Positions 1,425 to 63,580 of a DNA stretch of 64,000 nt are shown piece by piece (the first letter of the stretch is position 1; every line of letters begins with the position of its first letter). This DNA is from an uncultured Verrucomicrobiae bacterium (GTDB lineage: Bacteria > Verrucomicrobiota > Verrucomicrobiia > Chthoniobacterales > UBA10450), in NCBI GenBank assembly GCA_963726745.1, contig CAVSDR010000006.1, positions 576,001 through 640,000 on the forward strand, read 5' to 3'. Position numbers and translations under genes: made by a program. The notes under the pieces were generated by a model, which saw nothing but the letters and a program-made list of their open reading frames with translations, ran no database searches and was not told where the DNA came from.

Positions 1425-2610
1425 TTAGGCAAAGAAGCGCGCCGGTGAGAGCATCGGCTGGGGCTGGCAAATGCGAGCCACGCAATGCTCCCAGCTCTCG
1501 TGGCCGCTCAAGATCTCGATCTCGACGCGCAGGAAGTAGATCGGCACCTCCGGGTTCATCAGGCGCGGGAAACGGACGGCGTCTTTCTCGGTGGTGACGA
1601 TCATTTCGAGGTCGCGACGCAGGCAGCGGTTGATGAAGCTTTGCAGCTCGGCCTCGGTGTAGCGGTGGTGATCGGTGTAATGCTTCGAGATCTCGATCTT
1701 GGCGCCAAGCTTTTGCAGGCCGCCTTCGAAGCTCTCGGGCGCGGCGATGCCGCAAAGCGCGCCAATGTAAGTCTCGCGCAGCCGCTCGAGCGGGAGTTGC
1801 TCGCCGGTGAAGACGTTTTGCAGGTGGAGCGGCTTGTGGGCGCACTCGATGATCTCGGCAGTGCGATTGTACTCGCGGATGCGCTGGATCAACTGGTCGT
1901 TAGGTTCGCCGGTGCTTTTGGTAATGAAGATGTAGCTCGCGCGGCGGAGATTTCGCGGTGGCTCACGCAAGGTGCCGCGCGGGAGCAAGTGTTCATTGCC
2001 GAACGGGGCCTGGCGATCGATCAGGACGATGTCGAGCCGATGCTTCAGGTGGAGGTATTGCAGGCCGTCATCGAGCAACAAAGTGTCGGCTTTTAATTCG
2101 CGGATCGCGAAGAGGCCGCTCTTCACGCGGTCTTTGTCCACCAGGACGATTACGTCCTTCAAGTTGTTCGCGAGCATGTAAGGCTCGTCGCCGGCGGTTT
2201 GGGAATCGAGCAGAAGTGACTTGCCATCGGAGACCACCCGCGGCGGCGCCGGCGACTTTCCGGCGGAAAAAGCCCTGCCGCGCCGCGGGCACCGGCACGC
2301 TTTTGTATCCGCGGCTCAGGATGGCCACGCGGCGCCCGCCGTTGTGCAGGGCGCGTGCGAATTTTTCCACGACCGGCGTTTTCCCGGTGCCGCCCACGGT
2401 TAAGTTGCCGATGCTGATCACGAGGCAGCCGAGCTGGCGCTCGCGGAAAATACGGTGCCGGTAAAGGAAGAGCCGGAGCTGGACGATGCGCTCGTAGACG
2501 ACCGAGAGGACATGGAGCAGCCCGCGGAGGAGCGAGGCGCGCACGCCATGGCGCCGATCGAGGATCACATCGATCGCGAACTGCTCGAGACTTTCAGCGC
2601 GCTGGCCCAT
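1425..2610 (-). CDS. lpxK: Tetraacyldisaccharide 4'-kinase, frameshift near 2255
   Basis: N-part has [12 protein letters not shown] and LSRGYK (ORF 2068-2610); C-part has [20 protein letters not shown] and TTEKDAV (ORF 1425-2237). Confidence 0.92.
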
Positions 2611-3453
2611 CTAGGGATTTCGAATTTGGCGGGCGCCTCCGTTGTCGGCGGTGGTGATGATCGTGCGCGCCCCCTCCCCGGCGGCGGCGGACATGGCGTC
2701 GGCTATTTTCTGCGCCTGGCCTAACGAGACCGCGGCGATGGTGGAGCCGGAGCCGCTGAGGAAGGCGCCGAGCGCACCAGCGTTTTCGGCGGCGGCGACG
2801 ACCTGGTCGAAGAACGGGACGAGCGGTTTCCGGAAGGGTTGATGGAGCCCATCGCGGAAGGCGCCGCGGAGGTTCGCATATTTCCCGGAGGCGAAGGCGG
2901 CAGTGATGGCGGCCGCGTGGCCGCAGCTCTCGACCGCATCTTGCCGGCTAATTTTCGCCGGAAGGAGCGCGCGCGCCTTGGCCGTGGAGACTTCGAAGTC
3001 GGGGATAAGGAGGATGAACTTCAGCGCCGCGGCGACGGGGAAGCGCTGCGGGTCCGCGCCGCTGACGACGTTGAACCCGCCAAAGGTCGCGGGCGCGGCG
3101 TTGTCGGGATGGCCCTCGAGCTCGGCACAAAGCGCGAAGATCTCCGCGCGCGCAAGCGGACCGCCAGCGAGTTGATTGAGCCCATGGATCGTCCCAAGGC
3201 GGACGGTCACGCTGCTGCCGAGACCGCGCGCCATCGGCACCTCGCCAGTGATGCGCACGCGAAAGGCGAAGGGGGCGACCGCGGCGCGGGCGAAGAATTT
3301 CTCGGCTGCCGCGGCCACCATCGGCGGCACAGTTTTCCCGCGGCCGCGGGTGACGGTGATGTCGTTGTAGAGCCGCAAGGCCACGCCCAGGCAATCGTAG
3401 CCGGGCCCGAGATTCGAGGTGCTGGCAGGAACGCGAATGGTAACGGCAGGCAT
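2611..3453 (-). CDS. thrB: Homoserine kinase
   Basis: VPASTSNLGPGYD, PMARGLGSS, EGHPDN and LSGSGST GHMP motifs; ATG at 3453. Confidence 0.93.
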   Translation of the reverse strand: MPAVTIRVPASTSNLGPGYDCLGVALRLYNDITVTRGRGKTVPPMVAAAAEKFFARAAVAPFAFRVRITGEVPMARGLGSSVTVRLGTIHGLNQLAGGPLARAEIFALCAELEGHPDNAAPATFGGFNVVSGADPQRFPVAAALKFILLIPDFEVSTAKARALLPAKISRQDAVESCGHAAAITAAFASGKYANLRGAFRDGLHQPFRKPLVPFFDQVVAAAENAGALGAFLSGSGSTIAAVSLGQAQKIADAMSAAAGEGARTIITTADNGGARQIRNP

Positions 3454-3560
3454 GGCGTAGCTCCTCCGTGCGTGCCTTGCATCCGCACGCGGGGCAAGCG
3501 GATTATGCAATCGCGGACGCGCAGGGCCGCGGCGCGGGGCGAATCTTCTGCGGTGCGCAG

Positions 3561-4478
3561 ATGAAGATGTCGGAATGGATCGGGCCGGAAGCGGTGGCCG
3601 CGTTTGCCGCGGAGGAGACGGACGCCTACCGCCTCTGCACCTTTCCCGATGGCTGGGTCGAGCGCTTCGGCGCGGACATGCTCATCTCCTACAAAACGGA
3701 GAGCGCGCGCGAGCGTCTGACGACCGAACTTTTTCTCTGGGGCGCCTCGGTGCAGTTCAAGTTTCGCCGCGTCTTCGCGCGCTTTTTGCCGAAGCAGAAT
3801 GCCGAGCGCGAGGCGCCGCGGATCGTTTTTGGCGACGAGCTGGCGGACATCGCCGCGACGGCACGGGAACGCGGGGTGCGCTACGGGATCGACTTCGAAG
3901 CTGGTTACTCCTGCGGGCTCTTCCTCGACCAGCGCGAGAACCGCTCGTTTGTCCGGCGGGCGCATCCGAAGAATTTGCTGAATTGTTTCGCCTACACCTG
4001 CTCGTTCTCGGTGGTGGCCGCGCTCGCCGGGGCGAAGACCGTGAGCGTGGACCTGTCGAAGAAGTCGCTCGCGCGGGGGAAGGAAAACTTCGCGCTCAAC
4101 GGACGGGAGACGACGCCGGACCACCGCTTCATCGCGGACGATGTGATGGAATATCTCCCGCGGCTGGCGCGCAAAGGGGAGCACTTCGACGTGGTCATCC
4201 TCGATCCGCCGACCTTCTCGCGCTCGCACCGGGGCAAGGCGTGGCAGGTGGAGCGGGATTTCGAGACGCTCCTCCTGGCCGCGCTCGAGCTGGTGGAGCG
4301 CGATGCGCACATCTTGCTGTCTACCAACTGCACTTCGCTGAACGAGCGCGCGCTCGACGTGATGGCGCGCTTCTGCCTCAAGGCCACCCGCCGTGCCGGC
4401 TCGATGCAACGGACGGCGCCGCTAGTGGATTTCCCGGCCGAAGTAGGCGCGCGCACCCTCTGGCTGACGCTGCGCTAA
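3561..4478 (+). CDS. Class I SAM-dependent methyltransferase, RlmI/RlmK-like
   Basis: GLFLDQRENR, LNCFAYTCSFS and VILDPPTFS motifs. Confidence 0.85.
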   Translation: MKMSEWIGPEAVAAFAAEETDAYRLCTFPDGWVERFGADMLISYKTESARERLTTELFLWGASVQFKFRRVFARFLPKQNAEREAPRIVFGDELADIAATARERGVRYGIDFEAGYSCGLFLDQRENRSFVRRAHPKNLLNCFAYTCSFSVVAALAGAKTVSVDLSKKSLARGKENFALNGRETTPDHRFIADDVMEYLPRLARKGEHFDVVILDPPTFSRSHRGKAWQVERDFETLLLAALELVERDAHILLSTNCTSLNERALDVMARFCLKATRRAGSMQRTAPLVDFPAEVGARTLWLTLR

Positions 4479-4536
4479 ATGGCGGGCGGCGCCATTGCGG
4501 ACGCGCAAAAAGCCCGCACGGTGCGATGAGTAAGTG

Positions 4537-4818
4537 ATGGAAGAACAAATTGCCGAAGCCGACTTTGCGGAGCGCAGCCTGCGTTACACGCGCGATCAAT
4601 GGGATCAACTCCTCGAGCAGACGGAGGAATTTGTGCGCGAAAACCCGACCCGCGCGGTCGGCTACGCGGTCCTCGCGGGCGTGGTCCTCGACCGGCTCCC
4701 GGTCTTTCGGATTTTCGGCGGGCTCGCGCGCCTTTCGCTCATGGCCCTGAAGCCGGCCATCCTGATCTACGGCGCGACCAAGCTCTACCAGGTGGCGCAG
4801 ACCCAGGACGAAGCGTAA
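4537..4818 (+). CDS. Small hypothetical membrane-associated protein (ElaB/YqjD-like C-terminal part)
   Basis: EEFVRENPTRAVGYAVLAGVVL resembles the DUF883 tail. Confidence 0.55.
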   Translation: MEEQIAEADFAERSLRYTRDQWDQLLEQTEEFVRENPTRAVGYAVLAGVVLDRLPVFRIFGGLARLSLMALKPAILIYGATKLYQVAQTQDEA

Positions 4819-4825
4819 CCGCTCG

Positions 4826-5035
4826 TTAGGCGTCGAGGGTAAAGCCGACGTCCACCGTCACCTGCCAGTGGGCCACCTGGCCATTCTCGATATGGCCGCG
4901 CGTTTCCGTGACTTCGAACCAGCGCATGTTGCGCACGGTTTTGCCGGCGCGGGCGATGGCATTGGTGACCGCTTCTTCGATGCTGTTCGGCGAAGAGCCG
5001 ACGAGCTCGATTTTCTTGTAAACGTGATCGCTCAT
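4826..5035 (-). CDS. Dodecin (flavin-binding protein)
   Basis: [23 protein letters not shown]...WFEV...[11 protein letters not shown], 69 aa. Confidence 0.93.
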
Positions 5036-5120
5036 CCCGGAGGTTGAACGCTCCCGGGCGTGCTGACAACCGCGATGCTTGCCCTCCCCAGCGCTTCTCT
5101 TTAAAGAGCAGGCTGTTGCC

Positions 5121-7065
5121 ATGGAAAAAAATATCGAGTCGCACCTGGTCGAGAAACGAGTCTTCAAGCCGGGCCGCGATTTCAACCGGCGGGCGCGCAT
5201 CAGCAGCCGCGAGCAATACGACCGGATGTATCGCGAATCGATCCACGCGCCGGATAAATTCTGGGCGCGCGAAGCGAAAGAGCTCACCTGGACGCGGCGC
5301 TGGAAGAAGGTGGTCGACTGGAAGCCGCCCTTCGCGAAATGGTTCGTCGGCGCCGAGCTGAACGTCTCCGAAAATTGCCTCGACCGGCATCTCGCCGGCC
5401 CGCGCCGGAACAAGGCGGCGATCATCTGGGAAGGTGAGCCGGGCGAGAAACGCACGCTCACTTACCAGCAACTTCATCGCGAGGTTTGCCGCTTCGCGAA
5501 TGTGCTCAAGCGCCAGCAAGTGCACGAAGGCGACCGCGTAATTATTTACCTCCCGACGATCCCGGAAGCCGCGATCGCGATGCTGGCCTGCGCGCGCATT
5601 GGCGCGGTCCACTCGGTCATCTTCGGCGGCTTCAGCGCCGATAGCATCCGCGACCGAATCGCGGATTGCGGCGCGACCGCGGTGATCACCGCCGACGGCA
5701 GCTACCGCCGCGGCGCGGTCTTGCCGCTGAAGAAACACGTCGACGATGCGCTCCGCGGCGAGACGACCGTGCGGCGGGTGATCGTCTTCCGCCGTGCGGG
5801 CAACGACGTGCACATCGAGGAAGGCCGCGACGTCTGGTGGCATCGCGAGATGGAATATGTGAACGCGGATTGCCCGCCCACGCCGGTCGACAGCGAGCAC
5901 CCGCTTTACATCCTCTACACCAGCGGCTCGACCGGGAAACCAAAGGGCATCCTGCACACCACTGGCGGGTATTTAGTCGGCACTTACGTGACCACGAAAT
6001 ACGTCTTCGACCTGCGCGAAGAGGACGTCTACTGGTGCACCGCGGACGTCGGCTGGGTCACCGGGCACAGCTACGTGGTCTACGGCCCGCTGGCTAATGG
6101 CGCGACCACCTTGATGTATGAAGGCGCGCCGAACTGGCCGGAGCCGGACCGCTTTTGGCGGATCATCGAGGAGTACGGAGTCAACATTCTCTACACCGCC
6201 CCCACCGCGATCCGCGCCTTCATTCGCTGGGGCGACGATTGGGTCAAGAAGCACGACCTCTCCTCGTTGCGTTTGTTAGGCAGCGTGGGCGAGCCGATCA
6301 ATCCCGAGGCCTGGATGTGGTACCACGAAAAGATCGGCGGCGGCCGTTGCCCGATCGTCGACACCTGGTGGCAGACGGAAACGGGCGCGATCATGATCAC
6401 GCCGTTGCCGGGCGCAATTCCCACGAAACCGGGGAGCGCGACACTCCCGTTCTTCGGGATCGACGCCGCGATCGTCGATGAGGAAGGGAAGGAAGTGGGC
6501 CCGAATCGTTGGCGGCAAATTGATCGTGCGAAAGCCGTGGCCCTCGATGCTGCGGACGATCTACGGCGACGACGCGCGCTACAAGGAACAATACTGGAAG
6601 GAATTCAAAGGCAGCTACCTCACGGGCGACGGCGCGCGCCGCGATAAGGACGGCTATTTCTGGATCGTCGGCCGGATCGACGACGTGCTCAACGTCGCCG
6701 GCCATCGCCTGGGCACCTCGGAAATCGAGAGCGCGCTCGTGAGCCACGCGGCGGTCGCCGAAGCGGCGGTGGTCGGCCGGCCCGATGAACTCAAGGGCCA
6801 GGGCGTGGTCGCGTTTGTGACTGTGAAAACGGGCGTCAACGCCACCCCGGCGCTCAAGGAAGAGCTGCGCCAGCACGTGGCCCAACACATTGGCGCCATC
6901 GCCCGGCCGGACGAAGTCCGCTTTGCCGAGGCGCTGCCAAAAACGCGCAGCGGCAAGATCATGCGCCGTTTACTCAAAGAGATCGCGAGCGGCAAAGCAG
7001 TCACGGGCGACACGACCACGCTGGAGGATCTCGGCGTGCTGGCAAAGCTGAGCGCGGACGACTGA
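5121..7065 (+). CDS. acs: Acetyl-CoA synthetase, frameshift near 6508
   Basis: [11 protein letters not shown] and DTWWQTETG motifs; C-part has [14 protein letters not shown] and [11 protein letters not shown]. Confidence 0.95.
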
Positions 7066-7124
7066 AGCGAGCGTCGCTGCTTGTTTTCGCTTTGGCAAAC
7101 GACGCGCGCGGCTAGCGTTCGCTT

Positions 7125-9002
7125 GTGAATTTCATTCGCACCGGATTTCGCGAGCTCGGCCTGAAAGTGCGCCGGCAGCGCACCGGCATGGCCTTGCGCC
7201 ACGAAAAGCGCGTCCTCCAGCGGGCCGAGGTCGCGCTCGGCCGCGAAGGCGTGAACCAGGCGGGCAACGTCCCCGAACTGCGCACCGAGATCGTGGCGCT
7301 GAAGAAGCTCGAGCAGGAGCAACGCGAAGTCGCGGTCCGCATCTCGCAGATCGAGGCCGCGCTCAAGCAGCTCGAAACCCAGCGGCAGGAGAACGCCCGC
7401 GCGCAGCAGGAAGCCGTCTCCGCGCTCGAGCAACGCAAGCAGCCGATCCTCCAGCGCCGCGATGAGGCACGCAAAGCTTCCGACCTGTGCGACCGCGAGC
7501 TTTCCGGCGTCGACCGCCGGTTGAGCGCGAACGATGCGACCGATCGCGACTTGCTGAAGAAGCTGACGGAGTTGCAGGCGCAAGTCCCGCCGCCGGCCGA
7601 CCTCGACACGCAGACTGCGACCCTGGGCGTGCGCCGTGGGCGCCTGCCCGAGGAGCGCGCGGAGATCGAACGTGCGCGCCTGGGCGCGGCCGAGGCTTGC
7701 CGCCAGGCGAAGACGAAATTAACCGCCTGCCAGGGCGAGCTCGACGTAATCGAAAAGGAAATCGCCGCGGTGCGCGGCGAGTTCGAGGCGAAGGATCGCG
7801 CGCTGAACGAGAACAGCCGCGCGCAGCAAGAGACGCTCAAGGAAGCGCGTGCGCAGCACCAGACCGTCGAGGAACGCAAGAACCCGGCCTACCTGAACAT
7901 CGGGCGCCATCTCGGCTCGCAGGGCATCGCGCCGCCGAACGCGCCGCATTTGCTCGAGGAAGTGCAGCGCCATCGCGCCGCGGTCGAACGCCACACGCAG
8001 CACAAGCGCGAGCTCGCCGTCCTCTCCGCCGAAATCGACAAGCAGGAGCTGCGGAAATTTTACTTCAGCATCTTCTCCGTCCTCGTGCTCCTGCCGATCA
8101 TTGTCTTCTTCGTGATGCAATCGCCGCGGCAGCGCGATTGGCTCCCGCAGGAGACGGAGGCGATCATGTCATTGAACCTGCAACAACTCCCGCAGGACGA
8201 CTTCGTGAAGCGCTGGGAAAAGGAACGCGCGCCTGAATGGCAATCGATCTGGGCCGGCCTTACCTCCAACGCCGGCCGCACTCCCGCGCTCAATCTCGTG
8301 CGCGACGCCACCCGCCTCACCCGCGCGCTCACTTCAGGCCACGCTGGCGCGGTGCGTGAGTTCCTCCTTGTGCAGACGAAGGGCGACGTCGCCCCAGTCC
8401 TCCGCGCGGTCGTGCCCGAGCAGGGCTTCGAGCGGCGCGCAGTCAGCGGGCTGCCGATTTGGGTGCGCTCGGATTTTGCGCTCGCGCGCGTCGGGCCGCG
8501 CACGCTCGCGGTCGGCACTTTCGAGAGCGTCGAGGAACTCGTGCGCGTGCGTCTCGGGATTCGTCCGGATTTGAAGATCACCGGCTCGCTCTTCGATCGG
8601 CTGGAGGCGCTGGACAAGGAGACGAGCGTGCGTTTGATCGCGCGCGATCCTGCCAGTCTCGCGCAGTTTTTCCCGGCGATCTTCAAACGCGAGCTGCTCG
8701 AGGTTTCGCAAACTCTCGCCTTCGGCCTGGCTCTCGGAAATCCGGTCAAAGGCCGGCTGATCCTGCGCACGAAATCGCCGAAAATAGCCAGCGACCTGGC
8801 GGAGCAGGTGCGGACCGATCCCGAGCGCTACCTCCGCCTGGAGAACTCCGATTACCTGCTCTACGCGCAGCCGCCGGAGGTGGTGGCGCAGGGCACCGGA
8901 GTGGAGATTCGCTTCGAGATTCCGGAGAATAGTGCTCGACTTCTCCTCCAGCGATTTGCGAGGAACAACGCCCCGCCTGCGGTCGCCGCGGCCGGGAATT
9001 AG
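7125..9002 (+). CDS. Hypothetical protein: long N-terminal coiled coil, one TM helix, C-terminal extracytoplasmic domain
   Basis: 625-aa ORF with E/Q/R/A-rich heptads to about aa 310, then FYFSIFSVLVLLPIIVFFVM. Confidence 0.7.
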   Translation: MNFIRTGFRELGLKVRRQRTGMALRHEKRVLQRAEVALGREGVNQAGNVPELRTEIVALKKLEQEQREVAVRISQIEAALKQLETQRQENARAQQEAVSALEQRKQPILQRRDEARKASDLCDRELSGVDRRLSANDATDRDLLKKLTELQAQVPPPADLDTQTATLGVRRGRLPEERAEIERARLGAAEACRQAKTKLTACQGELDVIEKEIAAVRGEFEAKDRALNENSRAQQETLKEARAQHQTVEERKNPAYLNIGRHLGSQGIAPPNAPHLLEEVQRHRAAVERHTQHKRELAVLSAEIDKQELRKFYFSIFSVLVLLPIIVFFVMQSPRQRDWLPQETEAIMSLNLQQLPQDDFVKRWEKERAPEWQSIWAGLTSNAGRTPALNLVRDATRLTRALTSGHAGAVREFLLVQTKGDVAPVLRAVVPEQGFERRAVSGLPIWVRSDFALARVGPRTLAVGTFESVEELVRVRLGIRPDLKITGSLFDRLEALDKETSVRLIARDPASLAQFFPAIFKRELLEVSQTLAFGLALGNPVKGRLILRTKSPKIASDLAEQVRTDPERYLRLENSDYLLYAQPPEVVAQGTGVEIRFEIPENSARLLLQRFARNNAPPAVAAAGN

Positions 9003-9019
9003 CCAGCGCTTTCTCTCCC

Positions 9020-9682
9020 TTGATCCGTCTGTCACTCCGCCTCAGCCTTATCCTCGGCGCGTTCGCCAGCGCCGCCGCCGCGGAGCCAGAATTGGTCGAC
9101 CTGCACACGGTCGACCCGACGATCGTGATCGAGCTGCGCTACGCGAGCGCAAACAACTTCACCGGCCGCCCGCTTTATCCGCCGAACATGCCCGCGCTCG
9201 TCCGGCCAAGCGTAGCCGCCAAGCTGGTCGCCGCGCAAAGCGAACTTCTCCCGCGCGGCTATCGCCTGAAAATTTGGGACGCCTACCGGCCGAAGTCGGT
9301 CCATGACCAGCTCTGGCAGGTCTACCCGAACAAGGATTACGTCGGAAACCCAAACGACGGCATCGGCTCGCTCCACACCTGGGGCGTGGCGGTCGATGCG
9401 ACCATGGTCGACAGCAAAGGCCGCGATGTCACCATGCCGACGGACTTCGACGATTTCACGCCCGCCGCCATGCTCAAATACACCGGCAAGGACCCGATCG
9501 TGAGCCTGCACCTGCACATCCTCCAGCGGGCTATGGCCCGGGCGCAATTCTTCGGGCTGCGCACCGAATGGTGGCACTTCATTTCGCGCGGCTGGACAAA
9601 ATTCCAGCCGATCAAGGAAACGCCGCCCGTGATCGAGCCCGCGCGGCGCGCGGAAGCAGTCGTTAGGCCACCGCAGCGTTGA
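9020..9682 (+). CDS. D-Ala-D-Ala dipeptidase (VanX/DdpX, M15D), with signal peptide
   Basis: ELRYASANNF, WDAYRP, SLHTWGVAVD and EWWHF motifs. Confidence 0.9.
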   Translation: MIRLSLRLSLILGAFASAAAAEPELVDLHTVDPTIVIELRYASANNFTGRPLYPPNMPALVRPSVAAKLVAAQSELLPRGYRLKIWDAYRPKSVHDQLWQVYPNKDYVGNPNDGIGSLHTWGVAVDATMVDSKGRDVTMPTDFDDFTPAAMLKYTGKDPIVSLHLHILQRAMARAQFFGLRTEWWHFISRGWTKFQPIKETPPVIEPARRAEAVVRPPQR

Positions 9683-9693
9683 ACACGTGATCG

Positions 9694-10794: not shown

Positions 10795-10803
10795 TCGGCG
10801 ACC

Positions 10804-54096: not shown

Positions 54097-54270
54097 ATCC
54101 GAACTCGCGGAAGAACCCTTAAGGATTTCCGGCAACTTCAAACTTAAAGGATTCAGTCGGCAGCCTTTACATTTTTCTCGTATCTTAAAACTCATCGCCA
54201 ACATTGAACCGTTTGTAAATCCCTGTTCGCCAATTGGTTAAGTCCACGTTCACATGATCAGAATAGAGTC

Positions 54271-54286
54271 TGGCACGCAATCGGCT
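54271..54286 (+). promoter_or_regulatory. Candidate sigma54 promoter
   Basis: TGGCACGCAATCGGCT (GG-N10-GC), ~50 bp before GTG 54335. Confidence 0.5.
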
Positions 54287-54334
54287 AAGATTAAACACCC
54301 ACCTGTTCCAAAAGCGCTGAACCCCCAAACGCCC

Positions 54335-55288: not shown

Positions 55289-55419
55289 CCCATGCCGGCG
55301 CCGAGGCCTCGGCGTTCGTTTCCGGTCTTAGACCATCCGCGCGGTTGCCCTTAACCCCATCCGCGATTTCTTGGTGCGCGAAGTCTCGAGCTTCGCCATC
55401 ATTCGGTTTCCGCTCCGCC

Positions 55420-58400
55420 ATGCGCTTGCTCTCGGGATACGCTGCTCGCCTTTCTGTCTTGATGCTTCTCGCGGGCTGCCTTTGCAGCTGTTCGGGAGAA
55501 GCGCGCAAGCAGAGCCATTTGCGGCGTGGCGATCAGTTTTTCGCCGCGGAGAAGTTTCCGGAAGCACAGCTGGAATATCTCAGCGCCCTCCAGTTCACTC
55601 CTCCGGACGTCGGTGCGCTGCGCCGCCTCGGGCACATTTCGCTGGCTAATGGCGCTCTCCCACGCGCCTATGCCTACTACTCGAAAGCGTTTGCGCTCCA
55701 GCCGGCGAACCCGGAGCCGCTTGCCAAGATCGCCCGGGTCGTCCTGCTCCTGGGCGAGAAGCAAGAGGCGCAAAAGCAGGCTGCGGAAGCGCTCGTCCGC
55801 ATGCCGGGTAATGGCGAAGCACTGCTCGTTTTGGCAGACGCCATCGGCAATGACGACGATGCGCACGTTGCCGAACAAGCGCTCTGGGAAACGCGGGCTC
55901 ATCCGACCGCGGCTTCCCATCTCGCCTGGTCACGCATCGCCCTCTATCGCGGGGACTCGCTTTGGGCAGAAAGCGAGCTGCGCCAAGCGTTGCAAGCGGA
56001 CCCGCGCTTTGCCGAAGCGCAACTCGCCCTCGCGAAACTGGAGGCCGCGCAAGGTCACCCCGACGCTTCCCGCTTGGAGTTCAGCCGCGCACTTGAGCTT
56101 GCTCCCCTCCGTTCCGAGGCCCCGATCGCGTATGCTCGCTTTTTGCTGGATGTCGACGGGTCGGGCGCTGCGCAGGCCTACCTTGAAAAAATCAACGAGC
56201 GGGCTCCCGATTTCCTTTTCGGCTGGCAACTCCAAGCCGAGCTCGCGTTTGCAGAGAAACAATGGGAGCGCGCGACCCACGCCTTGGAGAAAGTCTTCGC
56301 GTACGATGGCGATTCCATTCCCGCCCGCCTCCTGGAAAGTGAAATCTCCCTTACAGTCGGCGAGCCGACCAAAGCCGTAGGCACGCTCGAGCGACTCGTC
56401 GCTGCTTTCCCTGATGTGCCTCTTCTAAACTACCGCCTGGCACGTGCCTACCTGGCAAATAACCAAGCCGACGAGGCCGAATCCGTCTTGCAAAAGGCTC
56501 TCGCCCGCACGCCCGACTTCGGCAGTGCCATCCTCCTGCTCGCGCAAGTGAAAGTGGAGAAGGGCGACCCTGCGTTCGCCGCCCCCCTGCTCCAGCGTTT
56601 GCTCGAGAAACAGCCGGCACTTTCCACCGCTCGCCTCTTGTTGGCGCAAGCTTATCAAGCCTCTGGCCGAGGCGACGAAGCCATCGCCGTCTTGCGCGAA
56701 GAGACCGAGCGCAACCCGCAATCAGCCGACGCCTTCGTTGCGCTCGGCGAAATCCTGCATCGGAACGACCACGTTGCAGAGGCGCGCGCCGCCTTCCAGC
56801 GAGCCTCGGAACTCGATCCCGCCGCGCTCCAGCCTTGGGCGGCCTTGGTCGAACTCGACCTGGCCACCGGCGACTTCGCCGCCGCGACGGCGCGGGTCGA
56901 GAGCCGCTTGCGGGAAGCACCCCGGCTAGCACCCGCACATTTTCTCCTCGGGAAAATCGCTTACGCGCAGAAGAATTGGGCCGCTGCCGAGCAGGCGCTA
57001 TCGGCCACGCTTGCGCTGGATCCACATCTTGCAGGTGCCGCGGAGTTGCTCGTCTCGACCCACCTCGCAGCCGAGAACGTCCCCTTGGCGGTCGAACGCC
57101 TTCAGCGGGAACTCCAACGCGATCCCGCCAATGAGCAGAATTTAACCACGCTCGCGCTGCTCTACCACTCCACGGGCCAGTTCGAGCCGGCGCGCGACGT
57201 CTACGAAAAACTCCTCGCGCTCAATCCCGCTTCGCGGGCCGCCTTGAACAATCTCGCCTTTCTCTATGCCGATCATTTCCGGCAATTCGACCGCGCCTAC
57301 GAGCTCGCCCGCCGCGCCCGCCTGCTCCAACCCGGCGATCCTGCGGTGGCGGACACGCTCGGGTGGGTTTTGTTCCGCCAGGCGCGTTACCCGGAGGCGT
57401 TCACGCTCCTGCGCGAGGCCGCGCTGCGTCTGCCGGATAATCCCGAGGCGCAGGCACACTTTGGGACCGTGAGTTACATGATGGACAAGCTGGACCTCGC
57501 CCGCACCGCCTTCGCCAAAGCGGCCGCCGCGCCCGGCGATTCTGCCGGCAAAACGGAGGCCGCCCGCTGGCTGGCCTTCCTCGATACCAATTCCGGCGAG
57601 GCGCGCGATTTTTCCGTGCAACAACTCGAGGCCCTGGTGCAGGAGCGGCCGGAGGATGTGATCGCGCGCACCCGGCTGGGTGAGGCCTACGAGCGCGAAG
57701 GACTGGTGGTCCAGGCCGCGGCTGCTTTCGAAAAAGCGCTCAATGCCAATCCAAATTTAGTCAGCGCGATGGTCCGCCTGGCGAAGTTATACGCCGGACC
57801 AATCGCGAAACCGGCGCAGGCCTTGGCGCTGGCCAAGCGCGCCCGCGAGCTGGCTCCCACGGACCCGAAGATAACCGCCGTGCTGGGGCGGATCGCCTCC
57901 CAGCTGGGCCAGTTTGCCTGGGCCTACAATCTCCTGCAAATGAGCACCCGCGACCGCCCGGAGGATGTCGCCCTGCTCTTCGATTTTGCCTGCGCCACCT
58001 ACGGCGTCGGCAAAACCCAGGAAGCCCGCGCGCTCCTGCAGCGCGTCGTCGCGGCCGCGCCACCGCCGCCGATCGCCTCCGAGGCGGACGTTTACCTCCG
58101 CCTTCTGACGCTCGCGGAACGGCCGGAGGAACTCGGCGCGCACGAGGAGGAAATCTCTCGTCTCCGGCAAGCTCATCCCGATTCCCTGCCTGCGGCGATG
58201 GTCTTCGCCGCCTGGCAAAAAGTTAAAGGCCAGCCGCAGGCCGCTGCCGCCACTTACGGCGAGCTGCTCCGGCGTTTCCCTGATTTCGCACCCGCCCAGC
58301 ACTCGTTAGCCAGCATCCTGGCGGAGGACGAGAGCCAGCTCGATCGCGCCTATGAGCTGGCGACAAAGGCACGGCAGGCGATGCCGGCCGATCCCGCGGT

Positions 58401-58647
58401 GGCGCGGCTCCTGGGCGAACTTTGCGTGCGTAGAAAGCAATACCCCTACGGCGCGCAGCTCCTGCAGGAGAGTGCGAAGGCTGCCCCGCTCGATCCGCGC
58501 GGGCTCTACTTCCTCGCCGTCGCCTGGCTAAACACCGACCAAACCAGCGAAGCGCAAAGTGCTTTCGAGCGTGCGCTGCAGGCGGGCTTGGCGGAGCCTC
58601 TGGCCACGCTCGCGAAAAAAGCCGTGGGCAATCTTAAGCCAGATTGA
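55420..58647 (+). CDS. Large TPR lipoprotein, PrsT-like (PEP-CTERM system-associated)
   Basis: LLAGCLCSC lipobox, ~1075 aa of TPRs, ALNNLAFLY...DTLGWVL motif. Confidence 0.8.
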   Translation: MRLLSGYAARLSVLMLLAGCLCSCSGEARKQSHLRRGDQFFAAEKFPEAQLEYLSALQFTPPDVGALRRLGHISLANGALPRAYAYYSKAFALQPANPEPLAKIARVVLLLGEKQEAQKQAAEALVRMPGNGEALLVLADAIGNDDDAHVAEQALWETRAHPTAASHLAWSRIALYRGDSLWAESELRQALQADPRFAEAQLALAKLEAAQGHPDASRLEFSRALELAPLRSEAPIAYARFLLDVDGSGAAQAYLEKINERAPDFLFGWQLQAELAFAEKQWERATHALEKVFAYDGDSIPARLLESEISLTVGEPTKAVGTLERLVAAFPDVPLLNYRLARAYLANNQADEAESVLQKALARTPDFGSAILLLAQVKVEKGDPAFAAPLLQRLLEKQPALSTARLLLAQAYQASGRGDEAIAVLREETERNPQSADAFVALGEILHRNDHVAEARAAFQRASELDPAALQPWAALVELDLATGDFAAATARVESRLREAPRLAPAHFLLGKIAYAQKNWAAAEQALSATLALDPHLAGAAELLVSTHLAAENVPLAVERLQRELQRDPANEQNLTTLALLYHSTGQFEPARDVYEKLLALNPASRAALNNLAFLYADHFRQFDRAYELARRARLLQPGDPAVADTLGWVLFRQARYPEAFTLLREAALRLPDNPEAQAHFGTVSYMMDKLDLARTAFAKAAAAPGDSAGKTEAARWLAFLDTNSGEARDFSVQQLEALVQERPEDVIARTRLGEAYEREGLVVQAAAAFEKALNANPNLVSAMVRLAKLYAGPIAKPAQALALAKRARELAPTDPKITAVLGRIASQLGQFAWAYNLLQMSTRDRPEDVALLFDFACATYGVGKTQEARALLQRVVAAAPPPPIASEADVYLRLLTLAERPEELGAHEEEISRLRQAHPDSLPAAMVFAAWQKVKGQPQAAAATYGELLRRFPDFAPAQHSLASILAEDESQLDRAYELATKARQAMPADPAVARLLGELCVRRKQYPYGAQLLQESAKAAPLDPRGLYFLAVAWLNTDQTSEAQSAFERALQAGLAEPLATLAKKAVGNLKPD

Positions 58648-58780
58648 AGCCAACTCCGGAGCTTTTCTCGGTTTCTCGCGAAGATTCTCTTTACATTGCG
58701 CCGTTTTTTTCTACAAAGTCCACGGTCAGAGCGGCTGCAGGCAAAGGGTGCCGCAGACCGCACCGGGAATCAAAAACATC

Positions 58781-59473
58781 ATGACCTCACATCGCTTCTT
58801 CGCCAAAACGTCATTGCTCGCCTTGGCTTTGCTCTGCGCCGCCTCCACCTCTTGGGCGGCCTTGGTTACCTGGGTCCTTAACCCCTCAAATCTTAATGCC
58901 GATGTCGGCTCGCCCACCCGCAGCTACACCGTCTCCGGCTTCAACATTGTCGCCTCCGGTTACGATCACCTCGCGGGCGGCGATCGTCTCCACCAGCTCC
59001 ACTACAAGTCGGAGCCGCCTGAGGGTGGCGCCATGGAGATCGGCCTCGGCCTTCAGAACACGAACGCAAACGAGCTCAATCTCATGCCGGATGGCACTCC
59101 GGAGCACTACATCCAGCTCGATTTGCGCTCGATCCTCGCCTTGGGCTTCGTGAACGGAAAAATCCAGGTCGCAAGCATGCAGGTGGGCGAAGGTTTCCGC
59201 CTCTTCGGTTCGAATAGCGCTGGCGTCCTCGGCTTGCAGCTTCCTGGCACCTGGACCGGCCTCGCCTTCGACAATCAATTTGTCTCCGTGCCGAACTTCG
59301 GCGCCTTCCAGTTTATCTCCGTCGCGGCCAACAGCGGACGCGTCCTGCCGGTGGCGTTTCAGGCCGAGATCAACCCGATCCCGGAGATGAGCGCGTTTTA
59401 CCCGATCATCGGGCTGGTGGCCGCGGTTTCGGTGGCGCAGGTCATTCGCCGCCGGCGCGCGGCTCTGCTCTAG
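58781..59473 (+). CDS. PEP-CTERM-like sorted protein
   Basis: Signal peptide; C-terminal PIPEMSAFYPIIGLVAAVSVAQVIRRRRA. Confidence 0.8.
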   Translation: MTSHRFFAKTSLLALALLCAASTSWAALVTWVLNPSNLNADVGSPTRSYTVSGFNIVASGYDHLAGGDRLHQLHYKSEPPEGGAMEIGLGLQNTNANELNLMPDGTPEHYIQLDLRSILALGFVNGKIQVASMQVGEGFRLFGSNSAGVLGLQLPGTWTGLAFDNQFVSVPNFGAFQFISVAANSGRVLPVAFQAEINPIPEMSAFYPIIGLVAAVSVAQVIRRRRAALL

Positions 59474-59499
59474 ACTTTCTGGATTCCTGTTTGGTTAAG

Positions 59500-59533
59500 G
59501 ACGGCCGCTCGCAAGGGCGGCCGTTTTCTTTTT
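59500..59533 (+). terminator. Rho-independent terminator between convergent genes
   Basis: GACGGCCGCTC-GCAA-GGGCGGCCGTT followed by a T-rich tail. Confidence 0.82.
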
Positions 59534-59555
59534 CTCCGCATCTCCATCTTGCCGG

Positions 59556-61256
59556 CTAGTCCAGACCAGCCTGCGCCTTTCGCACGAGGGCTCGTTCTTC
59601 CGGGAGGAGCGCTGCTGCATCGCTCCGGCGCAGGAACGCGCGCGCCTTTTCCTTCTCGCCCGCCGCGGCCAGGATGAGCCCGTAATAGGTCGCCACCGCC
59701 GGTTCTTGCAGCTGCGCGTCGCTCAACCGGTTCATCGCCGCCAGAGCTGCCTTGAGATCGCCCCGCGTGAGCAGGCCAAAGGCGTAGGTCGAGACGAAGC
59801 CGCCATTGCCCGGCTCCTTCGCCACCAAGTCGGCAGCGACTTTGCGCGCCCGCTCCAGGTCCACGCCCAGCAGCATCGAGATTTGGGCCAGGTTGTTGGC
59901 CAGAGCGCGATCCTCCGGCCGGAGCTCGGCAAATTTCGTCAGCGTGCGATAAAGCCCGGGTGTGTCCTCCCGTTTCGCATAGTGCTGGTAGAGCGTCTGC
60001 AAAGCCTGGAACTGCATCTCTGGCGCGCGACTGAGTGTCCAGAGCATCTCGATCGCCTCCTCCTGCCAGCCCCAATCGGCCACCGTTTGCGCGAGCAGCG
60101 CCAGCGCCTGCGGGTTTGCCGCCGCTTTCTGCGCGGCAGCCAGTTCCTGCTCGGCCGCGAGTTCTTTCTCTGTGCCGCGGAGCGCGCGCGCGAGAAAGGC
60201 ATGCCGCAAGAAGTCAAAGCCGCCCCAGCTCCCGGCACTCGTTAGGCGTTCGAGCTGGGCCCAATTTTTCTCCTGGGCGTGCGCCTCTGCCACCGCCATC
60301 GGCACCGGCCATTTCCCCAGCGTTTCGGCCGAGATGTTGCCGGCAAATTGAATCGCCTCGGCCGCCAAGCCGTTGCGCACCATCCAGAGCAGGAGGGCCG
60401 AGAGATCCGCCGGCTGCGCCCTCGCTTCATCTTTCAATCGGGTGAAATAGCCGGCAAATTCCGCCGCCTGCATCTGCCGCAAAATCTCCAGGTAAAGCAG
60501 CCGATCGCTGAAGATCGCCTCCGGCAGCGCCTGCAATTCCTCCGCGAGCACGCGCGCCTCCTCCGCCGGTTCGCCGCGGGCCACGCGGTCGATCACGAGC
60601 GTGCGCAGGGCCGCCGCGCGCTGCTTCGGGTCGGTGCGCAATTCTTCCAGCGCCCGCCGCGCCTCCGCCCGGTTCCCCGGCTCCGGGGAACTCAATCGCA
60701 CCAGCGCGAGCTGGAATTTGTAACCCTGATTCTGCGGGTCGAGCGCAACCGCCTTCGCCCAATGCGCCTCGGCGTTCGCCGCATCCTGCCGCAACTCGGC
60801 GAGCTTGCCCGAGGCGGCGTGGAACGGCGCCCAATCGCCTGCGCTGCCCGCAAGTGCGTCGAGCGTCTTCGCCGCAGTTATCAGGTCGCTTGCTCGCAGC
60901 GCGCTCCGGGTCAGCGCGAGGGCATCGTCGCGCGAGCCCGGCTGCGCCAGGAGGACTTTCCGCCGCCACTCCACTGCCGAGGGATCGCCCGCCTGCTCGG
61001 TGATTTCCGCAATGGTGCGCATGGCCTCGACGTTGTCCGGATTCAACTGCAGCGCGCGCCGCGCGATCAGGCTCGCGCTTTTCAGGTCGCCGCCGCTTAG
61101 GACAGCGGCTGCCTGGCGAACGAGGTGCCCTTCCTGCCAGTGTCGGTAACTCCGAAAGCTTCCCCAGAGCAGCGCGACCAGCAGAGCGAACCCGCCCACG
61201 CCCGCGAAGAGCAGCGTGAGGAACGTGCGTTCTGTCCGATTAAACGAAAGGTCCAA
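59556..61256 (-). CDS. Membrane-anchored TPR protein (paralog of 51218-52927), start approximate
   Basis: N-terminal TM; SLIARRALQLNP..., STYAFGL...YYGLILAA...LLPEE. Confidence 0.8.
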   Translation of the reverse strand: MDLSFNRTERTFLTLLFAGVGGFALLVALLWGSFRSYRHWQEGHLVRQAAAVLSGGDLKSASLIARRALQLNPDNVEAMRTIAEITEQAGDPSAVEWRRKVLLAQPGSRDDALALTRSALRASDLITAAKTLDALAGSAGDWAPFHAASGKLAELRQDAANAEAHWAKAVALDPQNQGYKFQLALVRLSSPEPGNRAEARRALEELRTDPKQRAAALRTLVIDRVARGEPAEEARVLAEELQALPEAIFSDRLLYLEILRQMQAAEFAGYFTRLKDEARAQPADLSALLLWMVRNGLAAEAIQFAGNISAETLGKWPVPMAVAEAHAQEKNWAQLERLTSAGSWGGFDFLRHAFLARALRGTEKELAAEQELAAAQKAAANPQALALLAQTVADWGWQEEAIEMLWTLSRAPEMQFQALQTLYQHYAKREDTPGLYRTLTKFAELRPEDRALANNLAQISMLLGVDLERARKVAADLVAKEPGNGGFVSTYAFGLLTRGDLKAALAAMNRLSDAQLQEPAVATYYGLILAAAGEKEKARAFLRRSDAAALLPEERALVRKAQAGLD

Positions 61257-61368
61257 GAGGCTCAGGGTAATTTGCGCCTCGGGCGAGTCAACGCGCGCGC
61301 GCCCGCCGCACCCGGCGCTTGCCGCCACCGGGCTCCGCGGGCATTTTACCAGCGCTTTCTCCGCTGCC

Positions 61369-62307
61369 ATGAACCCCGATCCGATCCGCGTCGACCGCGT
61401 CACCACCAGCTCGAAAATTTTCGCGCACACCCGTTGGGATGCGCTCCCCGCGCTCGCGGGCCTGTTCCATCTGGCCTTCTTTTTCGCGCTCTTCTTCCTC
61501 TACCCGCGCCTGCCGCTCTGGGTCATGCTCGTGCTCGGGTTTACCTACGCGCTCATGGTCAACGCGAACATCAACGGCGTGGGCCACAACTTCATCCACA
61601 ACCCTTTCTTCCGCGCGCCCCTGCTCAATCGCCTCTTCGGCATCACCCAGTCGATGGCCTGCTGCTTTTCGCAGACCTACTACGACGTGGTCCACATGCA
61701 GCATCATAAAGGGAACAGCGACCGCAAAGGCGAGGACGGCGAGACGATCGATTGGCTCTCGATCTACCGGCATGGGCACGACGACGAGCCGGAAAATCCC
61801 TGGAGCTACGTCTTCCTGAGCTTCTTCCGCGACAACCCCGCGGCGATCGCACGCGAGTTAAAAAAACGCGGCCGCAGCGAGTTGATCTGGGGCAATCTCG
61901 AGCTCGCTGCTTTCGCGACCACGCTCTTCGTGATGTTCCTTTTCAACTGGCGCTACGTGATCTTTTTCTTCCTCCCGTTCTTCTATCTCGGGCACTGCTT
62001 CAGTTACTTAAACGGCTACTTCCGCCACTACGGGGCCGATCCCGACAAGCCGATCGCCTGGGGCGTGAGCAGCTACGGTCGGCTCTACAACTGGCTCTTT
62101 TTCTACAACGGCTACCACGCCGAGCATCACTTCCGCCCAAAGGTGCACTGGACGCAGATGGAGCGTTTCCATTCCCAGATCGCCGATCTCCAGGAAGCCG
62201 AAGGCGTGCGCGTCATCCAGCACGCGCACATGCTTGGCTTCCTCGACCCCAACCTGCCGAAGCGCGGCGATCGCGACGCGAAGCCGGAGTTCCAGCCCAG
62301 CGCCTAA
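61369..62307 (+). CDS. Membrane fatty acid desaturase family protein
   Basis: His boxes HNFIH, HMQHH and HAEHH; TM helices. Confidence 0.88.
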   Translation: MNPDPIRVDRVTTSSKIFAHTRWDALPALAGLFHLAFFFALFFLYPRLPLWVMLVLGFTYALMVNANINGVGHNFIHNPFFRAPLLNRLFGITQSMACCFSQTYYDVVHMQHHKGNSDRKGEDGETIDWLSIYRHGHDDEPENPWSYVFLSFFRDNPAAIARELKKRGRSELIWGNLELAAFATTLFVMFLFNWRYVIFFFLPFFYLGHCFSYLNGYFRHYGADPDKPIAWGVSSYGRLYNWLFFYNGYHAEHHFRPKVHWTQMERFHSQIADLQEAEGVRVIQHAHMLGFLDPNLPKRGDRDAKPEFQPSA

Positions 62308-62331
62308 CGAGCGGTCTGTCGCCGCGTGGGC

Positions 62332-63580
62332 TTAGCGCGGATCAGTTACCCGGCCCAGGAAAAGACAAACGCCGCTGGGCACGTGCTGGATCGCGTAGAG
62401 AAACGGGCGATCCACCTTCACTTCCACCGGCTCATCCTGGCCCGGCGCGGCGGTGGTTGCCATCATCACCGCCGCAGTGGCCGCGGCGGCTTCGGTCCCC
62501 TGCTCGTCGACTGCGACGAAGGTTTTGTGGAAGACATCGGAGATGTAAAGATACTCGTCCGGCTTGCGTTCCGCCATTCGGCTAAAGTCCGCGCTCCCCT
62601 GTGGCAGGTCGAACATGGCCTGCAGACCCATCGCCTGTAAGTGCCGCGAAAGCTCCAGCGTTTCCGGGCTAAACTTGAAGCGCGGCAGATGCAAATCCAC
62701 CCGCACCCCCGGCAGCTTCGCGCCCGCGGCGAAGATCCCAGGCTCGAGCTTTTTCTCGAGCGCGCCGAGCCCGTTCTTCTCGTTAGGCAGCAAGATCAGG
62801 AGCTGAAATTCCTCGCCCGCATACGGCAGGGCCACGCTCGTGTAGCCGTCGCCCTGGGCATATCCCAGAGACAGCACCTTCCGCATCATCGGCACTTTCG
62901 CGGGCGTCTCGCCGTTGATCTGGAAGAGCTCCGGTTCAGTCGCGCTTTTGCTAAACTCATGCGCCCAGGGCGCCTTGAAATAGAGCGCGTTCACCAGCAC
63001 CAAGCGCGTCTGCTCGTCCAGCGGCGAAGGAATCAGGTTCTCGATCCGCTCTCGCGTTTGCTCCGCGACCCATTGGTTGATCCGTCGGGTTGCAGACGCG
63101 GCGTTGGCCTTGAAATCGAGCGGCTCCGGCGGGGCGCCGAAGTTTGCCTGCACCTCGGCGAGAAATTCCGGCCGAAGCACGAAGCCCTTTTGCGGGAAGA
63201 GGCGATTGGCCACCGCGAGCACGATCGGTTCACTGGGACCGCCATACTTCTTCGCGTTTTGCGCCTCCGTCGCCCTGCGGGCCACGCTCTCGCCGAGCGC
63301 CTTTTGCAGCGCGTGGAAAGCAGCCGACGATTCGTTAGGCGGCAACTTCAGCGCGCGGAGCATTTCCGCGCGGGTCGCGGCCTTCCGCGCCCGCCAGGGT
63401 CATCGCGAGGGCCTGGCTGATCGAGTAGGGCGAAAGGCAGAGATTCCCCGGGCTGCCCGCCACTTGCTGGTAAAGCGCCACGCCGAAGGCATTGGTCGAT
63501 TGCACCGCCGGGGCGAAGTCGCTGCCTAAAACCGGCCCGGCGAGCGCGCAAGCCATCAGGCTACGGACGAAAAGTCGCAC
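62332..63580 (-). CDS. Serpin (secreted serine protease inhibitor), frameshift near 63375
   Basis: NLCLSPYSI, LVLVNALYFKAPW, hinge EQGTEAAAATA and VDRPFLYAI...LFLGRVTDP. Confidence 0.92.

What the first reader, a model, noticed from the sequence alone, without database searches (positions are those of the whole stretch)
1897..63340. Highly iterated, frame-independent motif TCGTTAGGC: candidate new DNA-uptake/HIP1/Chi-like genome signature
Seen: manual scan finds TCGTTAGG on + at 1897, 4823, 9660, 16868, 18749, 20108, 21528, 22855, 26156, 28002, 29420, 32755, 34924, 37783, 40556, 40958, 42707, 46689, 60239, 62780 and 63332. The reverse complement CCTAACGA is at 2720, 10589, 25118, 30471, 36036, 36308, 38736, 43236 and 62303. 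That is 30 copies, 26 of which extend to TCGTTAGGC. One-mismatch variants occur at 598, 1422, 6273, 23496, 25747, 26870, 28335, 30898 and 38375. Assuming ~65% GC, only about 1-2 copies of the 8-mer are expected. The motif lies inside conserved genes in different frames: S-L-G (TCG TTA GGC; pyrE, sdhC, radC, mnmA, thrB), P-N-D/E (CCT AAC GA; lpxK, ispE, serpin), L-T (CTA ACG; secA twice, sdhB, topoisomerase) and V-R (GTT AGG). It also supplies stop codons (dodecin, pgeF, desaturase). It therefore forces rare TTA/CTA/CCT/AGG codons and is not explained by protein sequence. Established: this behaviour is typical of Neisseria DUS, Pasteurellaceae USS, cyanobacterial HIP1 and Chi/KOPS sites. Inference: a DNA-level signal that I do not know to be described for Verrucomicrobia. 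dprA, radC and pilin-like genes in the window make a competence/uptake role plausible but unproven.
Basis: partly seen in the sequence, partly recalled or inferred. Interest (0 to 1): 0.85.

Follow-up and report, generated by a model that had tools for sequence, protein, structure and literature searches.

The report
Self-spacing integron-core genome word
A family of abundant soil bacteria writes a nine-letter DNA word, spelled like the crossover point of integrons, into its genes up to thousands of times and keeps the copies apart, much like the 'self' tags that a few other bacteria use to take up their own DNA, but the protein that reads it is unknown.

Summary
Real. All 30 sites check out. 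The genome holds 1,312 TCGTTAGGC (3.5 expected when masked), about 75-fold over a synonymous-codon null, in all four open frames, with no strand polarity and no terminator pairs. It marks the Ca. Udaeobacter family (249 of 250 genomes above the 1-19 copies of 16 outgroup genomes) and is not enriched in 118 other Verrucomicrobiae. Copies avoid each other below ~300 bp (silent chances filled 24% vs 54%). Two unrelated words, M2 (3 of 34 genomes of this genus) and M3 (28 of 75 family genomes), also self-avoid but ignore M1, so several readers stack. M1 equals the attC/attI crossover sequence, also in families without the spread, yet only 18 of 1,959 sites are attC-like and M1 load does not follow intI (p=0.38). 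Best reading: a DUS-like bias in DNA uptake or recombination drives the word (0.45); no ComP-type receptor was found. Chi/KOPS and artefact are rejected. This scan noted the same word before on other DNA (Gemmatimonadota, soil Verrucomicrobia); ten literature searches found no description.

The parts
1897..63339 (+). M1 word TCGTTAGG(C), 21 copies on +: 1897, 4823, 9660, 16868, 18749, 20108, 21528, 22855, 26156, 28002, 29420, 32755, 34924, 37783, 40556, 40958, 42707, 46689, 60239, 62780, 63332
   Evidence: frames
2720..62310 (-). M1 word, 9 copies on -: 2720, 10589, 25118, 30471, 36036, 36308, 38736, 43236, 62303
598..38385 (.). Soft-position variants of M1 at 598, 1422, 6273, 23496, 25747, 26870, 28335, 30898, 38375
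   Evidence: genome-wide variant spectrum
2078..63974 (.). Second word M2 (RAAWTAG-N-CRRC-RMNWT, about 19 bp): 27 strict copies in the window, e.g. 26036+, 29719+, 42985+, 45220+, 2936-, 27217-, 27731-, 38713-
   Evidence: PWM list; strict count
46697..60238 (.). 13.5-kb stretch with no exact M1 8-mer (1 soft variant, 4 strict M2): pilin-like trio, prs, TPR proteins, ice-binding/VPDSG-CTERM proteins
44088..44933 (-). dprA; used as query to place the genome in the Ca. Udaeobacter family
   Evidence: Pfam PF02481 E 1e-72
28988..29683 (+). radC, carries M1 at 29420 as S-L-G; not evidence for competence
47578..50133 (+). Three pilin-like genes (prepilin-like N-terminus in the first; no Pfam pilin hit; third has DUF7305); untested candidates for a receptor pilus
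41262..44027 (-). topA with two M1 sites (42707, 43236) not shared by any of 60 family orthologs, which carry 16 other site positions

Best explanation
M1 is a DNA tag read by an unidentified sequence-specific protein that gives tagged DNA fragments an advantage in being taken up or recombined into relatives (a DUS/USS-like bias). Point mutations that complete the word spread by this bias even against codon preference and sometimes change amino acids; a second copy within about 300 bp adds little, which spaces the copies. Lineages have added further readers with unrelated words (M2, M3) that act independently and stack. Shown: abundance, non-polarity, self-avoidance, independence of words, proteome imprint, lineage range, integron match.
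For: Codon null 972 observed vs 13.0 expected over four frames. Tripeptides doubled as reported for DUS/USS (PMC2817400, passages): PNE+PND 392/193, SLG 762/465, reversed controls 0.93 and 1.04; same in G278 and G062, and VDL 2.6x, KID 3.6x in M3-rich G062. Invariant inner core GTTAG with graded flanks, as for USS (PMC7811141, passages). Saturating benefit: silent chances filled 61 of 254 when another M1 is under 200 bp away, 652 of 1,204 at 400-2,000 bp, p=8e-19, and unaffected by M2 distance; repeated in G278 and G062. Thin in acquired or variable DNA: 0.32/kb in the lowest-GC3 decile vs 0.51-0.63; the largest gaps examined hold polysaccharide clusters and large surface proteins. Rapid site turnover in orthologs. 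Intact ComEC, DprA, PilT/PilB-type ATPases, secretin and many pilins. All 9 of 9 relatives with over 300 M1/Mb have a full SNase-HhH ComEA, against 11 of 24 others (kin are not independent).
Against: No ComP-type receptor (best hit E 8.8e-4, under cut-off). No inverted pairs in terminators (7 close inverted pairs among 2,025 cores), whereas about half of DUES lie in terminators (10.1101/2025.10.24.684340, passages). This genome's ComEA homolog lacks its HhH domain, and the SNase part was not found in M3-rich G047, G053, G068, G069 or in G055 (852 M1). ComEC does not track load. Intergenic density is only slightly above coding (0.38 vs 0.34/kb). One provirus carries host-like density (16 in 42.7 kb vs 3 control; host not determined). 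A word shared with another phylum is a poor self tag. Unrelated words coexisting in one genome are unlike DUS dialects.
Confidence: 0.45

Rival explanations
1. M1 (and M2, M3) are binding sites of cytoplasmic chromosome proteins (nucleoid organisation, protection, self mark against a defence nuclease); selection keeps roughly one site per few hundred bases to kilobases.
For: Self-avoidance fits a footprint or protected zone as well as a fragment size. M2 is a long, pseudo-palindromic, graded logo like a dimeric protein site. A provirus carries M1 at host-like density. A structural role was proposed for HIP1 (PMC5861425, passages).
Against: Load varies over 300-fold inside one family (13 to 4,633) and G059 shows no iterated word in 140 kb; gaps of 10-35 kb are tolerated; no periodicity to 3 kb; words are gained clade by clade.
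Confidence: 0.2
2. One reading: M1 is an IntI arm, and integrase-started strand exchange with incoming DNA converts near-matches into the full word.
For: attC ends read (A/T)CTCGTTAGRY and attI cores TTCTCGTTAGRY in family and outgroup genomes. attC-type ends in 35 of 35 family genomes; intI in 51 of 75; a decayed intI in this genome. M2's W-T-n-n-n-C-R-R-C fits the WT and CRGM positions of IntI1 genomic hotspots (10.1101/2022.09.11.507474, section 33). Transformation feeds integrons (PMC12614218, abstract).
Against: M1 load does not differ with intI (medians 128 vs 103/Mb, p=0.38; 5 of 19 high-load genomes lack it). G059, G028 and G282 have integron sites but no spread. Genome-wide endings are GGC 1312, GCC 240, GGG 134, GTC 123, GAC 80, GGT 52, while GAT, common in this genome's attC sites, is not among the 30 commonest. 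Only 18 of 1,959 sites are attC-like. M2 has G before the arm in only 235 of 1,465 sites. M3 fits neither pattern. Conversion would not by itself explain self-avoidance.
Confidence: 0.15
3. HIP1-like: a methyltransferase marks part of the word and methyl-directed repair or methylation-dependent uptake creates and keeps it.
For: An orphan beta-class methyltransferase (TSPPY motif, contig C3 981251-982042) is in 33 of 33 family genomes plus G278 and G281, and only partly in 1 of 15 others. Alternative HIPs follow their methyltransferases (PMC4390886, passages); methylated HIP1 raises transformation (10.1101/2024.09.10.611283, abstract).
Against: The enzyme is also in G059 (no M1) and in low-load genomes; one enzyme cannot explain three words; its target is unknown; M1 is asymmetric with graded flanks also in intergenic DNA; any family-specific core gene shows this distribution.
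Confidence: 0.12
4. Chi- or KOPS-like polar signal.
For: Short non-palindromic word at about 0.4/kb; 21:9 in this window.
Against: Neighbouring sites share orientation 656 vs 649 times; 518 vs 466 by local GC-skew sign; no flip across 20 pieces of a 3.58-Mb contig of G278 (148 with the G-rich strand, 128 against).
Confidence: 0.03
5. Sequencing artefact or by-product of protein sequence.
For: The assembly has frameshifted genes; reads of the same strain were not available.
Against: Codon null exceeded about 75-fold; same word in hundreds of independent assemblies, many of them short-read type by their contig names.
Confidence: 0.01

Closest known systems
DNA uptake sequences: DUS of Neisseriaceae (read by ComP) and USS of Pasteurellaceae (PMC7811141, PMC2397512, PMC2817400, 10.1101/2025.10.24.684340; passages read)
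   Same: Asymmetric 9-10-mer at 0.4-1.4/kb, both strands, several frames, doubled tripeptides, invariant inner core with soft flanks, thin in acquired DNA, family-wide range.
   Different: Different phylum and word; no terminator pairs, instead close pairs are depleted; no ComP; unrelated words coexist and stack rather than forming dialects around one core; word equals an integron site and recurs in another phylum.
HIP1 and alternative HIPs of cyanobacteria (PMC4390886, PMC5861425 passages; PMC13756078, 10.1101/2024.09.10.611283 abstracts)
   Same: Hyper-abundant, non-polar, in genes; lineage-specific alternative words; a conserved orphan methyltransferase in the clade; possible link to transformation.
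   Different: M1 and M3 are not palindromes; no methyltransferase is tied to the word; long-range periodicity untested.
Integron attC/attI crossover (R box) and attG secondary sites (PMC4889954 passages; 10.1101/2022.09.11.507474 passages and section 33)
   Same: M1 matches 9-11 letters across the crossover of attC and attI sites of this order.
   Different: Scattered single arms inside core genes, no hairpin partner, no cassettes, different 3' spectrum, load independent of intI.
Chi and KOPS/AIMS (strand-biased octamers; PMC5861425 passage)
   Same: Short asymmetric over-represented word.
   Different: No strand bias.

Membership tests
DUS/USS | Hundreds to thousands of copies of an asymmetric 9-10-mer | tested here: met
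   1,312 9-mers in 3.41 Mb, 3.5-19.7 expected
DUS/USS | Both strands, no replication polarity | tested here: met
DUS/USS | In coding DNA in several frames, encoded tripeptides enriched | tested here: met
   four frames; PNE+PND 2.0x, SLG 1.6x, reversed controls 0.9-1.0
DUS/USS | Under-represented in newly acquired DNA and strongly constrained genes | tested here: met
   0.32/kb in lowest-GC3 decile vs 0.51-0.63; 0.42/kb in genes at least 80% identical to relatives vs 0.51-0.57; rRNA 0 in 4.4 kb is too little to count; acquisition judged by composition and gene type only
DUS/USS | Frequent inverted pairs in intrinsic terminators | tested here: not met
   1 inverted 9-mer pair at 15 bp; 7 close inverted core pairs genome-wide
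DUS/USS | ComP-type minor pilin receptor | tested here: not met
   PF16732 best E 8.8e-4, below cut-off, N-terminal helix only
DUS/USS | Complete competence machinery | tested here: inconclusive
   ComEC, DprA, PilT/PilB-type ATPases, secretin present; ComEA homolog lacks HhH here and is patchy in the family
DUS/USS | Word raises DNA uptake | not testable with these tools
   needs an uptake assay
DUS/USS | Dialects are variants of one core | tested here: not met
   M1, M2, M3 are unrelated, coexist and do not avoid each other
HIP1/HIP | Palindromic word | tested here: not met
   M1 and M3 asymmetric; M2 only pseudo-palindromic
HIP1/HIP | Cognate orphan methyltransferase acting inside the word | tested here: inconclusive
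   family-wide orphan enzyme found, also in G059 without M1; target unknown
HIP1/HIP | 10-90 kb periodicity | not tested
   only spacings to 3 kb examined finely, no period
Chi/KOPS | Strand bias with replication direction | tested here: not met
   52.6% and 53.6% co-oriented
Integron att sites | Sequence of the R box at the crossover | tested here: met
   attC and attI of this order read CTCGTTAGRY
Integron att sites | Partner box and foldable attC hairpin, or two-arm attI core | tested here: not met
   18 of 1,959 CGTTAGNY sites attC-like; opposite-orientation pairs depleted below 200 bp
Integron att sites | Purine-purine-pyrimidine ending tolerated freely (GTTRRRY; label recalled) | tested here: not met
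   GCC, GGG, GTC outnumber GAC and GGT; GAT almost confined to attC
Integron att sites | Dependence on intI | tested here: not met
   p=0.38 over 75 genomes; only a decayed intI here; absence in MAGs is not proof

The most novel reading that the evidence does not exclude
Soil bacteria of at least two phyla have evolved a DNA receptor tuned to the integron crossover sequence, so that they preferentially take up gene cassettes from environmental DNA; the same bias then drove the word through their whole chromosomes. In the Ca. Udaeobacter family further readers with unrelated words were added and act multiplicatively, giving a combinatorial, clade-specific DNA passport. This would be a third origin of sequence-specific uptake and a direct link between competence and integrons.
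Probability: 0.2. Interest if true: 0.92.

Novelty: new variant of a known kind. Interest (0 to 1): 0.75.

Why it matters
Sequence-specific uptake tags are documented for two proteobacterial families, with HIP1 as a debated third case. A comparable signal in the Ca. Udaeobacter family (among the most abundant soil bacteria; recalled) shows that whatever drives such words is at work outside them, strongly enough to rewrite codons, stop codons and amino acids. The words may also be needed to transform these uncultured bacteria and can serve as binning and phage-host markers.

Tried and rejected
Reads: only one run held a small share (0.13) of the stretch; its contigs were sparse relatives and gave no test of the window's bases. 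ComEC as a discriminator: 68 of 70. M2 as a copy of the repeats upstream of attI: best PWM scores -2.4 to 9.3 in 6 attI regions, shuffle fractions 0.03-0.69, below the 5th percentile (11.7) of real sites. An M1 right-flank RRC extension: present here (22% vs 9%) but not in 363 sites of genomes without M2 (8% vs 9%), so it comes from M1/M2 composite sites. A fixed M1-M2 spacing or orientation: none. dif-like sites as source of the words: no convincing dif found. Relic tripeptides in low-load genomes as sign of decay from a high-load ancestor: none in about 139,000 residues (1.04, 0.98), small sample. Viral scans: 20 contigs, 19 without extra copies; this says little about phages of this family. 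Type I HsdM and C5 methyltransferase hits sit in variable islands and were not followed. Rfam: one tRNA only. Look-up of earlier notes by place and by the methyltransferase gave nothing relevant. No reader for M2 was identified: whole proteomes of congeners could not be compared. k-mer surveys of four further genomes were not done, so extra words there remain open.
Full report
Observation. The 30 sites are exactly as listed, against 0.77 expected from shuffles. Gene boundaries throughout come from my own codon-model gene caller (3,116 genes), not from a curated annotation.

Organism. DprA relatives at 79-88% identity come from records titled Chthoniobacterales, Verrucomicrobia or Ca. Udaeobacter; records titled Chthoniobacteraceae or Terrimicrobiaceae lie at 66-71%. 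The genome thus belongs to the family-level group holding Ca. Udaeobacter (GTDB name UBA10450, recalled).

Genome-wide. 1,514 8-mers and 1,312 9-mers in 3.41 Mb; 19.7 expected by an order-3 model, 3.5 with the motifs masked. The logo is W-S-S-W-C-T-C-G-T-T-A-G-G-C and is the same in intergenic DNA. Changes in the inner GTTAG are at or near background; the outer positions are graded. Given the amino-acid sequence, the four open frames show 446/4.2, 74/0.2, 232/1.1 and 220/7.5 observed/expected; two control words reach 1 to 10 per frame against 1 to 10 expected, with ratios up to 5.6. 972 of 2,079 silent chances are filled, and 1,402 of 2,894 TTA codons lie in M1 or M2. M1 supplies 189 of 928 TAA and 129 of 1,099 TAG stops. 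PNE+PND and SLG are 2.0 and 1.6 times expectation, their reversals 0.93 and 1.04. Density is 0.34/kb in genes and 0.38/kb between them.

No polarity. Neighbours share orientation 656 vs 649 times; 518 vs 466 follow the local GC skew. Twenty 20-kb pieces of a 3.58-Mb contig of G278 show no flip.

Self-avoidance. M1-M1 pairs at 12-200 bp number 81 against 180 expected and recover by 300-500 bp; five control words show no such trough. A silent chance is filled 24% of the time when another M1 is under 200 bp away and 54% at 400-2,000 bp (p=8e-19); distance to M2 has no such effect. The trough recurs in G278 and G062. Inverted close pairs are rare, unlike DUS/USS.

Range. 24 of 24 congeners have 138-2,412 copies; 16 genomes of other families in the order have 1-19. 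Among 250 family genomes of 30 genera the range is 13-4,633, and 249 exceed 19; in the lowest genomes some copies are attC sites. None of 118 other Verrucomicrobiae is enriched for CGTTAGGC (0-42 copies). Sites turn over: 60 family topA orthologs carry 16 positions, none equal to this genome's two.

More words. M2 (RAAWTAG-N-CRRC-RMNWT) has 1,465 strict copies against 42 for the reversed pattern and is high in only 3 of 34 genomes of the genus (968, 392, 261). M3 (WTGTCGATCTT) is very sharp and exceeds 100/Mb in 28 of 75 family genomes, up to 4,941 copies; 3 genomes are rich in both M1 and M3. M2-M2 pairs at 12-300 bp are 129 vs 182 expected, M1-M2 pairs 525 vs 449. In 200 kb of G062, M3-M3 pairs at 50-300 bp are 101 vs 158 (not depleted at 12-50 bp) and M1-M3 pairs at 12-300 bp 238 vs 217; in 120 kb of G044 the M3 trough is not clear. 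Each word therefore saturates on its own, which points to separate readers. G059 shows no iterated word in 140 kb.

Integron link. The lead came from earlier notes of this scan and was tested. attC sites of G028 and G304, which lack the spread, end in ACTCGTTAGGC, TCTCGTTAGGC or GGTCGTTAGGC. attI cores next to intI in G278, G059, G062 and G192 read TTCTCGTTAGRY in 5 of 6 integrase loci shown. This genome has a 15-site cassette array with an attI-like core on contig C6 (736.6-744.8 kb) and only a decayed intI on C2. attC-type ends occur in 35 of 35 family genomes, G281, and 8 of 20 others. But only 18 of 1,959 sites are attC-like, the 3' spectrum differs, and load does not follow intI. The word matches the integron site; the integrase alone does not explain the spread. 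The hotspot logo in the supplement of 10.1101/2022.09.11.507474 could not be seen and bears on the M2 resemblance.

Other taxa. A metagenome scan for two non-TCG copies stopped at 122 stretches. Of the 37 loci of 3 kb or more, 16 look like cassette arrays and 14 are GC-rich DNA with 4-12 copies and at most one attC-like pattern; matches to this genome's proteins there are mostly 29-51% identical (two copies per locus are given by the query). One, L326, encodes a protein whose nearest Atlas clusters are Gemmatimonadota. This supports, from one contig, the earlier notes that the word recurs in that phylum. One provirus of unknown host has 16 copies in 42.7 kb.

Candidate readers. ComEC is intact and near-universal. 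No ComP. The family's ComEA is an SNase-HhH fusion, also found in 10 of 14 outgroup genomes, present in 10 of 10 further M1-rich genomes, truncated here and not found in several M3-rich ones. An orphan beta-class methyltransferase is family-wide but also in G059. None is shown to read M1.

Mechanism. A bias that favours tagged fragments and saturates within a fragment explains abundance against codon bias, the tripeptide imprint, the hard core, thinning in acquired DNA, turnover and self-avoidance. That is the DUS/USS model (PMC7811141, PMC2397512, PMC2817400; passages). It works like a DUS in these respects but fails three membership features (terminator pairs, ComP, dialect structure), so I do not file it as one. 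I give uptake/recombination drive 0.45, a chromosome-binding or self-mark role 0.2, an integrase-family reader 0.15, a methylation route 0.12.

Literature. Ten searches found no paper on this word or on uptake sequences in Verrucomicrobiota or Gemmatimonadota; one search listed 30 of 250 string matches, none on bacterial genome motifs by title. The library lacks most subscription papers. Seen: passages of PMC7811141, PMC2397512, PMC2817400, PMC4390886, PMC4889954, PMC5861425, 10.1101/2025.10.24.684340; passages and section 33 of 10.1101/2022.09.11.507474; abstracts of PMC13756078, PMC12614218, 10.1101/2024.09.10.611283.

Verdict. A real, unpublished-as-far-as-searched, family-wide DNA signal with an unexplained integron match and stackable sister words; new variant of a known kind; interest 0.75.

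Noticed in passing
G000 contig C3 981251-982042 (L161:16251-17039): Orphan beta-class DNA methyltransferase (TSPPY) among housekeeping genes, about 70% identical across 33 of 33 family genomes and nearly absent from other families of the order; a CcrM/Dam-like lineage marker with unknown target.
   Followed up: partly
G000 contig C4 17230-17874; L199-L222: The family's ComEA is fused to a staphylococcal-nuclease-like domain behind a signal peptide; here the HhH part is missing, and a lone HhH fragment lies on C2 near 230180.
   Followed up: partly
G000 contig C6 736.6-745.3 kb; C2 58.4-58.9 kb; C3 632.4 kb; C4 149-151 kb: A 15-site cassette array with an attI-like core but no integrase, a frameshifted intI remnant elsewhere, and further isolated attI/attC-like sites.
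   Followed up: partly
L111-L120 (G282, outside the family): TGTTWAAC-type word enriched (TTAAACA 36 vs 8.4 in 200 kb); possible iterated word of another lineage.
   Followed up: no
L267-L271 (G002, same genus): CACAGAT 35 vs 4.9 and CATCTGT 28 vs 5.1 in 100 kb; possible fourth word in a low-M1 congener.
   Followed up: no
G000 contig C6 near 177 kb and 826 kb: 16S and 23S rRNA genes lie about 650 kb apart (unlinked), by primer-like pattern matches only.
   Followed up: no
L131-L132, L135-L136, L257-L266: A GTCATCCCGAGC-type repeat recurs in G192, G059, G091 and G052; looks like a REP-like element.
   Followed up: no
window 47578-58647: Pilin-like trio, TPR proteins and ice-binding/VPDSG-CTERM surface proteins form the M1-free block; a paralogous pilin-like trio lies on C3 near 584-587 kb.
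   Followed up: partly
window 62332-63556: Serpin gene appears split into two overlapping frames at 63335, with M1 at the junction.
   Followed up: no
L240 (viral record G395): Provirus with portal, repressor and transposase genes carrying CGTTAGGC at 0.37/kb; host not determined.
   Followed up: partly
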